Notes: a model not told the origin generated them from the letters alone. A DNA stretch of 64,000 bases from Escherichia coli (GCF_016026235.1 NZ_CP065613.1), one strand, 5' to 3'. Shown: positions 2,100 to 3,848, numbered from the stretch's first letter. Numbers and translations are program-made.

Positions 2100-3600
2100 T
2101 CCGCCGTCGCCAAGCGCTAACGTGGGTTACTCTTGTACCGGGCTACGTCGCCTTCAGGGAACTGGTTATTCTCATTTTTTATTTGTGACATTGTGGTTGT
2201 TGTGCGACAGATATTGCTATTCGGCCCATATCCCAGATAAAACCCGCCAGCTCACGTGCAACAGCAACAATTGTAATATTGACATTCTTTCCTTTGGCCT
2301 GAAGTTTTCGATACCTCTTACAAAGCCTGAGTTGAGCATCCCATGCTCTGTCAATGACGGGGCGGGGTAAATTTTCCTGCCTTTTTTGTATTGCCGGACT
2401 GATGCGTGCCGGATGACGGTAACTCCACGCTGCCTCGACCAATAGCTTTCTGGCATAGCTGTTTCCGGCTTTGGTAATGCTGCCCTGATGTCTGCTTCCA
2501 CCCGATGAATATTCTGATGGCGTGATACCAAACCATGACATCAGTTGTCGTGGATGTTCAAAACGGGTCAGATCACCCAGTTCAGAAATTAATCCAACCG
2601 CAGTAATAAACTGAATCCCTCGCATGGCTTGCAGCGCCTCTACTACCGGATACAGCCTCCATTCGGTAACGGCCTCCTTCAGGGCGGATTCCAGCCGTTC
2701 ACATTGTGCCTGCCGGTCTTCTATTGTACGACGGTGTTCGTCAAAAGCTAATTGTCGCCAGGGACTTTCGAATGAGTATTTGCTGAGCCAGCGTCGGTGT
2801 GCAGGGCCCCAATCTGCTCGCCCGACATAATGGACCCCATGAACCAGAAGAAACGATTTCAGACGTTGCCTTGCATGCCGTAAATCATCGCGGGCAGATG
2901 CCCATGCCCGGGCCAAATCCCGGAATGCCTCATCTTCAATGCCGGGTACGTAGACAGCAGAAAGATCTCCTGCACGCAGTGAACGCACAAGTCTGATGGC
3001 ATCACGGCGATCGGTTTTAACCCGCTCCCCCGGTTTTTTCGGGATAAGTGAGGGGCGCAGACCATGCAGTCAAAACCGGATTTCACCAGCCGACGATAAA
3101 GTCCATAACCACAGGGCCCCGCTTCATAAACGATACTGACCTGCGATGACTTTGACCTGAGACGTTTACAAAGATTCTGAATATCAGTAGGTGATGTGCC
3201 AATTTTACCCATCAGTTCAACAGGTTCTGAATTGATAGCATAAGCGACAGTAATCGATTCTTTGTGAACATCTAACCCGACGTACAATGTGTTATTGTTG
3301 TTCATGCTGGCCTCCGTGGTGGAAATACCGGGGTGTAGCAACAGCTCACCCATGCGGCTCTGACAACGATGTTAACCCGCGTTAAATATCCCACGTTGGC
3401 CAGCATCTGTCTCACGGAAAGTCATACTGCCTTACATGATATGTTGAATCCTACAAAAGATACCAATTGGAATTCCACGTATATCTACAAATCCAGACAT
3501 GAGATGTTGCCTGTTAATCTTACTCAGGAAACACTTTTCAGCTCCAAATCTCATGGTAAATATGCGCTTTTCCCAATTTTTACTGCGAGTTGGCGAGCTA
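2100..3600 (-). mobile_element. IS110-family insertion sequence (boundaries approximate)
   Basis: Recombinase with IS110-type N-terminal RuvC-like region (YVGLDVHK, KTDRRDA) and C-terminal GIQFITAVGLISELGD motif; sits in the yjbI-ubiC intergenic region, which is about 1.9 kb here; element GC content is higher than the AT-rich flanks. Ends not determined. Confidence 0.6.
2179..3305 (-). pseudogene. IS110-family transposase/recombinase, interrupted by a 1-bp frameshift near 3052-3055
   Basis: Two overlapping ORFs from the track (2859..3353 and 2179..2988) are the N- and C-terminal parts of one protein; reading through the G4 run at 3052-3055 as G5 would join ...GFDCMVCAP to SLIPKKPGERVKTDRRDAIRLVRSLRAGD...; likely start is MNNNNTLYVGLDVHK at 3305. 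Confidence 0.75.
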
Positions 3601-3848
3601 CTCGTATAAAGAATAAAGGTATTTAAGTAAAGGAAAACATCACCGTTCCTGGCATCATGGGCGGTGATGCCCCTATGGTTGCCCTCGCCAGCACGGGCAT
3701 CGGCAAAGCGTAAGGTTCAACAGCGTTTTACCACTTCATGCGATTGTTGCGTTTTTGTTGCGCATTAGATCACTTAATTTGCTTTACATCTCCCGTAAAC
3801 ACTTTTCTGCGATACAATGCCTTTACGTTATGTAACGGAGAGTTCGGC

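What the first reader, a model, noticed from the sequence alone, without database searches (positions are those of the whole stretch)
3306..3650. Untranslated leader upstream of the IS110-family recombinase: candidate bridge/guide RNA locus
IS110-group elements carry a structured non-coding RNA of roughly 150-250 nt in the non-coding end 5' of the recombinase; it base-pairs with both target and donor DNA to specify recombination. Here a non-coding stretch of several hundred bp lies directly upstream of the recombinase start on the minus strand and has no convincing ORF. If this element is not catalogued, its RNA would define a new target/donor specificity. The 263-bp region downstream of the recombinase stop (1916-2178) is the alternative location, as in IS1111-type elements.
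Basis: inference. Interest (0 to 1): 0.7.

Follow-up and report, generated by a model that had tools for sequence, protein, structure and literature searches.

The report
ISSso6 guide RNA lies downstream
The flagged "leader" is mostly the severed tail of a host gene cut by a catalogued insertion sequence (ISSso6), and the element's target-guiding RNA lies on the other side of the transposase gene, as expected for this type of element.

Summary
Comparison with an uninterrupted E. coli allele puts the element at window 1912-3430 (minus strand, 1519 bp). It is a copy of the ISfinder-catalogued ISSso6, inserted into the SopA-family gene yjbI.

Of the flagged 3306-3650:
- Only 3306-3430 (125 nt) is inside the element. 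It is a conserved 5'UTR fold over the ribosome-binding site and shows no guide-like covariation.
- 3431-3626 is the 3' remnant of yjbI, and the rest is intergenic.

The element is IS1111-type: 14-bp subterminal inverted repeats and a 267-nt non-coding right end.

Across 51 related elements, one loop strand is complementary to the target top strand and the other is identical to it. In the window, the first strand pairs with TAAG|CGCTG. The second strand, GUAAG, matches the left flank.

A covariance model built without the window hits only 2053-2142 (E=6.5e-24).

Durrant et al. 2024 already list ISSso6 as carrying a right-end bridge RNA. This copy's transposase is frameshifted. The finding is ordinary and already known.

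The parts
1912..3430 (-). ISSso6 copy (IS110 family, IS1111 group), 1519 bp (intact copies are 1520 bp), inserted in yjbI with no target duplication beyond a shared AG.
   Evidence: Empty-site comparison with L002: CATGTAAG|CGCTGGG. The same insertion with an intact gene is in L001. RefSeq annotates it 'IS110-like element ISSso6 family transposase'.
2179..3305 (-). Transposase gene, a pseudogene in this copy: a 1-bp deletion in the C run 3052-3055 splits it into ORFs 2859-3353 and 2179-2988.
   Evidence: The intact allele is 375 aa, scores 273.9 bits on NF033542, and carries PF01548 + PF02371.
3413..3426 (-). Left subterminal inverted repeat TATGACTTTCCGTG, 4 nt in from the element end.
1916..1929 (-). 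Right subterminal inverted repeat CACGGAAAGTCATA, 4 nt in from the element end.
3306..3430 (-). Left end / 5'UTR (125 nt), the only part of the flagged interval inside the element. It has a conserved fold whose stem GCUGGCC/GGCCAGC abuts the ATG and covers the Shine-Dalgarno GGAGG (3311-3315). No guide-like blocks.
   Evidence: Single-sequence fold z=-2.39. Consensus fold with some compensatory pairs. No run of covariation with target flanks. No covariance-model hit.
3431..3626 (+). 3' remnant of the interrupted SopA-family gene yjbI. It makes up most of the flagged interval; 3627-3650 is intergenic sequence before ubiC.
   Evidence: NCBIfam PRK09718 positions 445-512 of 512, E=5e-40. Frame continuity across the junction. 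The uninterrupted gene is in L002.
779..1911 (+). 5' part of the interrupted yjbI.
   Evidence: PRK09718 positions 71-448, 877 bits.
1973..2163 (-). Structured guide-RNA locus (seekRNA / bridge RNA) in the non-coding right end, 191 nt, closed by a ~20-bp basal stem (2142-2162 pairs with 1974-1994).
   Evidence: Fold of the right end: -88 kcal/mol, z=-4.72, 0 of 200 shuffles as stable. 44 distinct homologues at 82% column identity. Consensus structure. 98.4% of cells paired against 33-47% for slid controls, with 9 compensatory pairs.
2053..2142 (-). Target-binding domain, the only hit in the window for a covariance model built from 43 relatives with the window excluded.
   Evidence: 82.7 bits, E=6.5e-24; no other hit in 64 kb on either strand at E<=10.
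2111..2121 (-). 5' strand of the target-binding internal loop ('T' guide), GUUAGCGCUUG. UAGCGCUUG pairs antiparallel with the target top strand TAAG|CGCTG (positions -4 to +5; 7 Watson-Crick and 2 G-U pairs).
   Evidence: Complementary covariation: col57/+1 z6.0, col56/+2 z8.1, col55/+3 z5.9, col54/+4 z5.8, col53/+5 z4.6, col60/-3 z4.7. Col58 covaries with the last element base, z5.0.
2074..2084 (-). 3' strand of the target-binding loop ('B' guide), GACGUAAGAAA. GUAAG (2077-2081) is identical to target top strand -5 to -1, so it would pair with the bottom strand.
   Evidence: Identity covariation: col93=-5 z6.2, col94=-4 z7.0, col95=-3 z5.9.
2085..2110 (-). Hairpin capping the target-binding loop (GCGA...UCGC).
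   Evidence: Pairs 62-65/86-89 and 68-69/79-80 show compensatory changes.
2017..2024 (-). Conserved AUAUCAG, identical to the element's right terminus ATATC + AG. The next base (2017) tracks the first base of the right target flank. Candidate donor-end guide with a handshake-like position.
   Evidence: Nearly invariant in A1. Col157 = target +1 in 42 of 45 elements, z6.9. Tail duplications begin exactly after this site in L003 and L052.
1928..1933 (-). TTGACA in the right end, the -35 half of a promoter that would exist only in the circular junction.
   Evidence: TTGACA in 53 of 55 elements at a fixed distance from the end. Junction sequence. By analogy to ISEc11 (PMC11187229).
3424..3429 (-). 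CAGTAT in the left end, the -10 half of the junction promoter (17-nt spacer once the ends are joined).
   Evidence: CAGTAT in 48 of 54 elements.
3431..3435 (-). Left half of the target (GTAAG on the element strand, ending in the AG core).
   Evidence: Eight ISSso6 insertions all have a left flank ending GTAAG. Nearly all relatives end in AG.
1907..1911 (-). Right half of the target (CGCTG on the element strand).
   Evidence: The right flank starts CG[C/T] at all sampled ISSso6 insertion sites except the one shared by L008 and L009.

Best explanation
Window 1912-3430 (minus strand) is a copy of the catalogued insertion sequence ISSso6, an IS1111-type member of the IS110 family, inserted into the host gene yjbI.

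Its target-selecting RNA is encoded downstream of the transposase gene, at 1973-2163 in the 267-nt right end, not upstream. The RNA is a long hairpin-closed scaffold with an internal loop.
- The loop's 5' strand (UAGCGCUUG) base-pairs with the top strand of the target across the insertion point (TAAG|CGCTG).
- The loop's 3' strand (GUAAG) has the same sequence as the left target half, so it would pair with the bottom strand.
- The two guides overlap on an AG core.

This is the arrangement published for IS1111-family seekRNAs/bridge RNAs: the top-strand match lies 5' of the bottom-strand match. A second conserved segment, AUAUCAG+N, copies the element's right terminus plus the first base of the right flank. 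It is the best candidate for the donor-side guide.

Expression is inferred to come from a promoter assembled only when the ends are joined in a circle: TTGACA in the right end, a 17-nt spacer, and CAGTAT in the left end.

The flagged interval upstream of the ATG is 125 nt of element 5'UTR followed by the severed 3' end of yjbI. The 5'UTR folds over the ribosome-binding site, probably to limit translation.

What is shown: boundaries, repeats, RNA conservation and structure, and guide-target covariation. What is inferred: transcription, processing, binding to the transposase, the donor guide, the promoter, and the role of the 5'UTR. In this copy the transposase is frameshifted, so the RNA could act only with transposase supplied from another copy.
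For: Boundaries and identity:
- Empty-site alignment and the intact allele.
- 14-bp subterminal repeats.
- Transposase family assignment.

Right-end RNA:
- Fold z=-4.72.
- 44 distinct homologues from 77 related loci.
- Consensus structure.
- 98.4% of cells paired against 33-47% when partners are slid, 9 compensatory pairs, 0 of 500 shuffles as high.

Guide function:
- A contiguous antiparallel complementary run, cols 53-57 against +5..+1 (z 4.6-8.1), plus col60 against -3.
- A parallel identity run, cols 93-95 against -5..-3 (z 5.9-7.0), over 51 elements with many different targets.
- Col58 tracks the last element base.
- All eight sampled ISSso6 insertions share GTAAG on the left; all but one locus (L008/L009) start CG[C/T] on the right.

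Model test: a covariance model built without the window hits only 2053-2142 (minus strand) at E=6.5e-24.

Literature:
- ISSso6 is listed as 'RE, IS1111' in Durrant et al. Supplementary Table 5.
- IS1111 seekRNAs come from the downstream non-coding region, with T 5' of B and matches that overlap in the target (PMC11187229).

Junction promoter hexamers are conserved.
Against: - No transcript data: nothing here shows that the RNA is made, processed or bound by the transposase.
- No sigma-70-like promoter for it was found in the integrated element.
- Donor recognition is unresolved. The element ends are almost invariant in the family, so covariation has no power. No segment complementary to the left-end terminus stands out beyond a 5-6 nt UACUG(C) that overlaps the basal stem.
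- Some insertions match their guides imperfectly (L013; the right flank of L008/L009).
- Permutation z-scores ignore the relatedness of the elements, so they overstate independence.
- The transposase in this copy is frameshifted.
Confidence: 0.88

Rival explanations
1. One reading: the bridge/guide RNA is encoded in the non-coding stretch 5' of the recombinase (3306-3650, minus strand), as in IS110-group elements such as IS621.
For: - IS110-group elements do carry the RNA upstream (PMC11208160).
- The 125-nt left end is conserved and folds: z=-2.39, and a consensus fold with some compensatory pairs.
Against: - 3431-3650 lies outside the element and is the yjbI remnant plus intergenic DNA.
- The left end has no variable blocks that track the insertion site: two isolated weak hits and no run.
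- The family covariance model has no hit there, and Rfam finds nothing.
- The element has long subterminal repeats and a longer right end, which are IS1111 hallmarks.
- Durrant et al. place the ISSso6 RNA in the right end.
Confidence: 0.03
2. Target-only seekRNA model. The right-end RNA reads only the target, and the target halves that flank the integrated element. The element ends are recognised through the subterminal inverted repeats and the protein. AUAUCAG+N is then not a donor guide but a conserved scaffold or a by-product.
For: - Siddiquee et al. report only target matches in IS1111 seekRNAs, and show that target-derived flanks are required for circle formation.
- No covariation with donor positions could be detected here, and no convincing guide for the left-end terminus was found.
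- The target-binding domain alone (about 70-90 nt) is close in size to published seekRNAs (70-100 nt).
Against: - AUAUCAG is an exact copy of the right terminus, and the next base tracks target +1 in 42 of 45 elements. That resembles the handshake guides of IS621 (PMC11208158).
- Durrant et al. describe donor-complementary loops in IS1111 bridge RNAs.
- The whole 191-nt scaffold, including the second domain, is conserved.
Confidence: 0.35
3. The conserved right-end structure is not a guide RNA. It would instead be a 3' mRNA stabiliser or terminator, or a DNA-level transposase-binding site.
For: - It sits directly after the stop codon and forms a long stable stem.
- No independent promoter was found.
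Against: - A stabiliser or protein site would not have two short hypervariable loop strands that change in step with the insertion-site sequence, one complementary and antiparallel, the other identical.
- There is no U-tract terminator signature on the minus strand at the RNA.
Confidence: 0.04

Closest known systems
ISEc11 and other IS1111-family elements with a seekRNA (Siddiquee et al. 2024, PMC11187229)
   Same: - Subterminal inverted repeats with short terminal extensions.
- A longer non-coding region downstream of tnp.
- An RNA from that region with a top-strand match 5' of a bottom-strand match, overlapping in the target.
- No target duplication.
- A promoter assembled at the circle junction (TTGACA in the right end).
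- Natural retargeting by replacement of the guide blocks while the stems stay conserved.
   Different: - The ISSso6 transposase is 375 aa, against the 330-350 aa quoted for typical IS1111 transposases, and is only about 17-25% identical to the other ISfinder entries in their matrix.
- The target is different (GTAAG|CG against GTGAAAATACTG).
- Nothing about ISSso6 has been tested experimentally.
IS621 bridge RNA (Durrant et al. 2024; Hiraizumi et al. 2024)
   Same: - An internal loop whose two strands read opposite DNA strands around a 2-nt core.
- A guide segment for an element terminus whose neighbouring base reads the other DNA partner (handshake principle).
- A DEDD + Tnp-domain recombinase.
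   Different: - The RNA is in the right end, not the left end.
- The order of top- and bottom-strand guides is reversed.
- Long subterminal repeats are present.
- The core is AG rather than CT.
- A complete donor-binding loop could not be demonstrated here.
ISSso6 entry in ISfinder / Durrant et al. Supplementary Table 5
   Same: It is the same element. The transposase is identical apart from the frameshift and one M-to-I change, and the RNA is predicted in the right end.
   Different: I found no published description of its guide-target pairing, core or target consensus. Those details come from this analysis.
ISPpu9 / Ssr9 of Pseudomonas putida (PMC12288879)
   Same: An IS110-family element with a small RNA gene downstream of the transposase and additional orphan copies of that RNA gene elsewhere in the genome (abstract). 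Compare the orphan right-end copy in E. coli JML285.
   Different: It targets REP sequences. Relatedness to ISSso6 was not tested.

Membership tests
IS110 family, IS1111 group | DEDD (RuvC-like) N-terminal domain plus a C-terminal Transposase_20 domain with the G--P----S/T-G motif | tested here: met
   The intact allele scores 273.9 bits on NF033542 (cut-off 140) and carries PF01548 + PF02371. The motif GITPSEYSSG is visible in the translation. The window copy is frameshifted.
IS110 family, IS1111 group | Subterminal inverted repeats of 7-17 bp | tested here: met
   A 14-bp perfect repeat, TATGACTTTCCGTG / CACGGAAAGTCATA, lies 4 nt in from each end.
IS110 family, IS1111 group | Longer non-coding region downstream of the transposase gene | tested here: met
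   The right end is 267 nt and the left end 125 nt.
IS110 family, IS1111 group | Site-specific insertion without a target-site duplication | tested here: met
   Empty site CATGTAAG|CGCTGGG compared with the occupied site; only AG is shared. Consensus GTAAG|CG[C/T] over eight insertions.
IS1111-type seekRNA / bridge RNA | A structured RNA in the downstream non-coding region with a top-strand match 5' of a bottom-strand match, overlapping in the target | tested here: met
   Structure. Guide-target covariation. Pairing in the window.
IS1111-type seekRNA / bridge RNA | [quoted passage not shown] | not testable with these tools
   No expression data are available. No internal promoter was found by consensus scan.
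IS1111-type seekRNA / bridge RNA | A promoter formed at the circle junction | tested here: inconclusive
   TTGACA-17 nt-CAGTAT would form on joining the ends, and both hexamers are conserved (53 of 55 and 48 of 54). Activity was not tested.
IS621-type two-loop bridge RNA | RNA encoded in the left end, upstream of the recombinase | tested here: not met
   The left end has no model hit and no guide covariation. The RNA is in the right end.
IS621-type two-loop bridge RNA | A donor-binding loop with guides to both donor halves | tested here: inconclusive
   Only AUAUCAG (a copy of the right terminus) and a +1-tracking base were found. The ends are too invariant for covariation.
Rfam families | A match to a curated RNA family | tested here: not met
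   No match in the element at E<=10. No Rfam release 15 family matched this RNA.

The most novel reading that the evidence does not exclude
The conserved AUAUCAG+N segment of the right-end RNA is a genuine donor-end guide, and its adjoining base is a handshake position that reads the first base of the right target flank. That would make ISSso6-type (IS1111-group) RNAs true two-partner bridge RNAs that use IS621-like handshake pairing. It would reconcile the 'seekRNA reads only the target' and 'bridge RNA reads target and donor' descriptions. As a corollary, the DNA that encodes this guide mimics an end-plus-target junction and is itself hit by the element. This would explain the independent tail duplications in E. 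coli (L003) and Paraburkholderia (L052).
Probability: 0.4. Interest if true: 0.35.

Novelty: already known. Interest (0 to 1): 0.15.

Why it matters
It matters little beyond correct annotation. The element is catalogued, its class of guide RNA was described in 2024, and a published table already places the ISSso6 RNA in the right end.

Useful by-products:
- An exact map of this copy: boundaries, a frameshifted transposase, and a disrupted yjbI.
- A worked-out target code for the ISSso6 clade: target NGTAAG|CG, core AG, and the two guide strands.
- A family alignment showing natural retargeting.
- A hint of a handshake-like position in an IS1111-type RNA.

For a genome scan, the lesson is to fix IS110-family boundaries from an empty site, and to check for subterminal repeats, before deciding which end holds the RNA.

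Tried and rejected
- **Rfam scans** of 1-8000 and 1880-3680 at permissive E-values found nothing in the element.
- **Promoter and terminator scan** of 1850-3700 gave no excess over shuffles and nothing that explains RNA expression.
- **Left end as guide carrier.** It is conserved and structured, but no run of columns tracks the flanks.
- **E. coli variants matching only element positions 1-1332 at 95%** (H41-45, L010) were considered as natural retargeting. The right end is simply cut off by another mobile element, and the covariance model has no hit there.
- **Orphan right-end copy at 90% identity** (H67, L088) was considered as a reprogrammed RNA. It carries essentially the same guides and is a decayed remnant.
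- **Alternative pairing GACGG/CCGUC** to close a donor loop was dropped in favour of helix 25-31/117-120, because cols 31 and 117 covary (UA 21, CG 19).
- **Variable block 2058-2062 (AUAUG) and GAAAGU** as copies of the subterminal repeat match only in ISSso6 and do not track the repeat in relatives.
- **ACCUCUGUAAU (2043-2053)** as a guide to the circle junction shows no convincing complementarity. Its single correlation (col124 with -5) is isolated and expected by chance.
- **Covariation of RNA columns with the first left-end base and inner repeat positions** gave only scattered, non-contiguous signals.

Full report
**What is in the window.** The first 8 kb read malM (3' end), a SopA-family pentapeptide-repeat gene (yjbI), ubiC, ubiA and plsB, so this is an E. 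coli/Shigella chromosome. On the minus strand, between 2179 and 3353, two overlapping ORFs together match the IS110-family transposase model NF033542 (148 aa: 47.5 bits; 269 aa: 189 bits). The plus-strand ORF 779-1915 matches the SopA-family model PRK09718 at profile positions 71-448. The small plus-strand ORF 3369-3626, inside the flagged interval, matches positions 445-512 of the same 512-position model at E=5e-40. The 'leader' is therefore largely the far side of a host gene split by the element.

**Boundaries.** Megablast against 5,426 complete E. coli genomes found the flanks in nearly all of them but the full stretch in only five.
- An uninterrupted allele (L002) reads ...CATATCATGTAAG|CGCTGGGAGC....
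- In the window the same sequence is split by GCAGTATGACTTTCCGTG......CACGGAAAGTCATATCAG.
- The element therefore spans window 1912-3430 on the minus strand, 1519 bp. There is no duplication beyond an AG shared by the left flank and the right terminus.
- yjbI continues in frame across the junction.
- An otherwise identical copy at the same site in E. coli FDAARGOS_943 (L001) has an intact 375-aa gene annotated 'IS110-like element ISSso6 family transposase'.
- The window copy lacks one C in the run at 3052-3055 and is frameshifted.
- The intact protein scores 273.9 bits on NF033542 (cut-off 140) and carries PF01548 and PF02371.

**Type of element.** A perfect 14-bp inverted repeat lies 4 nt in from each end (3413-3426 and 1916-1929). 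The non-coding left end is 125 nt and the right end is 267 nt. These are the features that separate IS1111-type elements from IS110-type ones. In IS1111-type elements the guide RNA (seekRNA / bridge RNA) comes from the region downstream of the transposase (PMC11187229; PMC11208160). ISSso6 is in ISfinder, and Supplementary Table 5 of Durrant et al. lists it as 'RE, IS1111'. Its transposase sequence in Siddiquee et al. matches the window apart from the frameshift and one residue. Six papers mention ISSso6, and none of the titles and abstracts returned concerns its RNA or target.

**The flagged interval.**
- 3431-3626 is the yjbI remnant and 3627-3650 is intergenic.
- The 125 nt inside the element fold only moderately better than shuffles (z=-2.39; the whole 345 nt gives z=-2.36).
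- Across 27 relatives the left end is conserved. Its consensus fold has a stem, GCUGGCC/GGCCAGC, that abuts the ATG and encloses the GGAGG ribosome-binding site, with a few compensatory changes. I read this as a translational control structure of the 5'UTR; that is an inference.
- When left-end alignment columns were tested against the flanking target sequence of 39 elements, only two isolated weak signals appeared and there was no run.
- Rfam and promoter scans found nothing.

**The right end.** The 267-nt right end folds at -88 kcal/mol against -65.7±4.7 for shuffles (z=-4.72, 0 of 200 shuffles as stable).
- A scan of species-representative genomes with the intact transposase returned 77 loci, mostly Burkholderiales elements at 70-81% protein identity.
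- Their downstream regions align with the window over a 191-nt core (window 1973-2163). There are 44 distinct sequences at 82% mean column identity: an almost invariant scaffold interrupted by short hypervariable blocks.
- The consensus structure has a ~20-bp basal stem, three short helices, an internal loop capped by a hairpin, and a second domain.
- On that structure 98.4% of cells are standard pairs, against 33-47% when partners are slid by 1-3 columns. Nine pairs show compensatory changes, and no shuffle out of 500 reaches the observed values.
- One added pair (cols 31/117: UA 21, CG 19) came from a covariation scan.

**Guide-target relationship.** For 51 elements I extracted the flanks using the subterminal repeats as anchors.
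- The 5' strand of the internal loop is complementary, in antiparallel register, to the target top strand: col57/+1 (z 6.0), col56/+2 (8.1), col55/+3 (5.9), col54/+4 (5.8), col53/+5 (4.6), col60/-3 (4.7).
- The 3' strand is identical to the top strand: col93=-5 (6.2), col94=-4 (7.0), col95=-3 (5.9).
- Positions -2 and -1 are an almost invariant AG, the core. Col58, which faces -1, covaries with the last base of the element (G or A; z 5.0).
- In the window, UAGCGCUUG (2111-2119) pairs with TAAG|CGCTG (nine contiguous pairs, two of them G-U). GUAAG (2077-2081) equals the left flank.
- All eight sampled ISSso6 insertions in E. coli have a left flank ending GTAAG; all but one locus (L008/L009) have a right flank starting CG[C/T].
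- This is the published IS1111 arrangement: the top-strand match lies 5' of the bottom-strand match, and the two overlap in the target.
- The z-scores come from permutations that ignore relatedness, so they overstate independence. The contiguity and strand logic of the runs are the stronger argument.

**Model test.** A covariance model built from 43 relatives with the window left out (87 positions, the target-binding domain) finds one hit in the 64-kb window on either strand at E<=10. The hit is 2053-2142 on the minus strand, 82.7 bits, E=6.5e-24.

**Donor side and expression (inferred).**
- A nearly invariant AUAUCAG (2018-2024) copies the right terminus ATATC+AG. The next base equals the first base of the right flank in 42 of 45 elements (z 6.9). 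This resembles the handshake guides of IS621, where a base next to a donor guide reads the other DNA partner.
- The element ends hardly vary in this family, so covariation cannot test donor pairing. I found no convincing guide for the left terminus. The target-only seekRNA model therefore remains open.
- Joining the ends would create TTGACA-17 nt-CAGTAT. Both hexamers are conserved at fixed positions (53 of 55 and 48 of 54), as reported for ISEc11.
- No promoter for the RNA is evident in the integrated copy.

**Verdict.** The element and its class of RNA are already known, so interest is low. The guide code for the ISSso6 clade and the handshake-like position are incremental details worth a note, not a discovery.

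Noticed in passing
L003 1816-1926 (E. coli FDAARGOS_943) and L052 (Paraburkholderia domus): Two unrelated elements carry a tandem duplication of the last ~106 bp of the right end. In both, the first element end ...ATATCAG is followed by the sequence that normally follows the internal AUAUCAG site. This fits the element inserting into the guide-encoding DNA of another copy, followed by recombination between the copies.
   Followed up: partly
L088 1856-1944 (E. coli JML285, NZ_AP024114.1): An orphan right-end RNA locus, 90% identical to ISSso6 and carrying essentially the same guides, with no adjacent transposase gene (covariance model 60 bits). 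Compare the orphan ssr9 copies reported for ISPpu9.
   Followed up: partly
window 2052-2084 and related loci (A1 column 99): A base three positions 3' of the bottom-strand guide (col 99) also tracks target position -3 (34 of 40, z 5). It may pair with col 60 inside the free loop, or it may be a second reading of the target. Unexplained.
   Followed up: no
related loci L016, L017, L019, L031, L038 and others: In 14 elements the right terminus ends CAA rather than CAG, while the left flank still ends AG. The top-strand guide has U instead of C opposite that position. The two 'core' copies in an integrated element therefore each match a different guide strand.
   Followed up: partly
window 5243-5380: Sub-threshold Rfam matches to naRNA4 (40.1 bits, gathering score 59.5) and ES036 between ubiA and plsB, most likely REP-type repeats.
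   Followed up: no
window 779-1911 and 3431-3626: yjbI (SopA-family pentapeptide-repeat protein) is inactivated by this insertion. Only 5 of 5,426 complete E. coli genomes share the insertion.
   Followed up: yes
L003, L004, L007: Three ISSso6 copies share the same right flank (CGTCAACGGAGCACCGTATTGACGC, next to annotated transposase remnants, IS66-family in L003) but have different left flanks. This suggests rearrangements between copies after insertion.
   Followed up: no
window 3306-3430: The left-end 5'UTR has a conserved stem that sequesters the Shine-Dalgarno/start region, with compensatory changes in relatives (for example GCUAGCC/GCCUAGC in L057). It is probably a translational brake on read-through transcripts.
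   Followed up: partly
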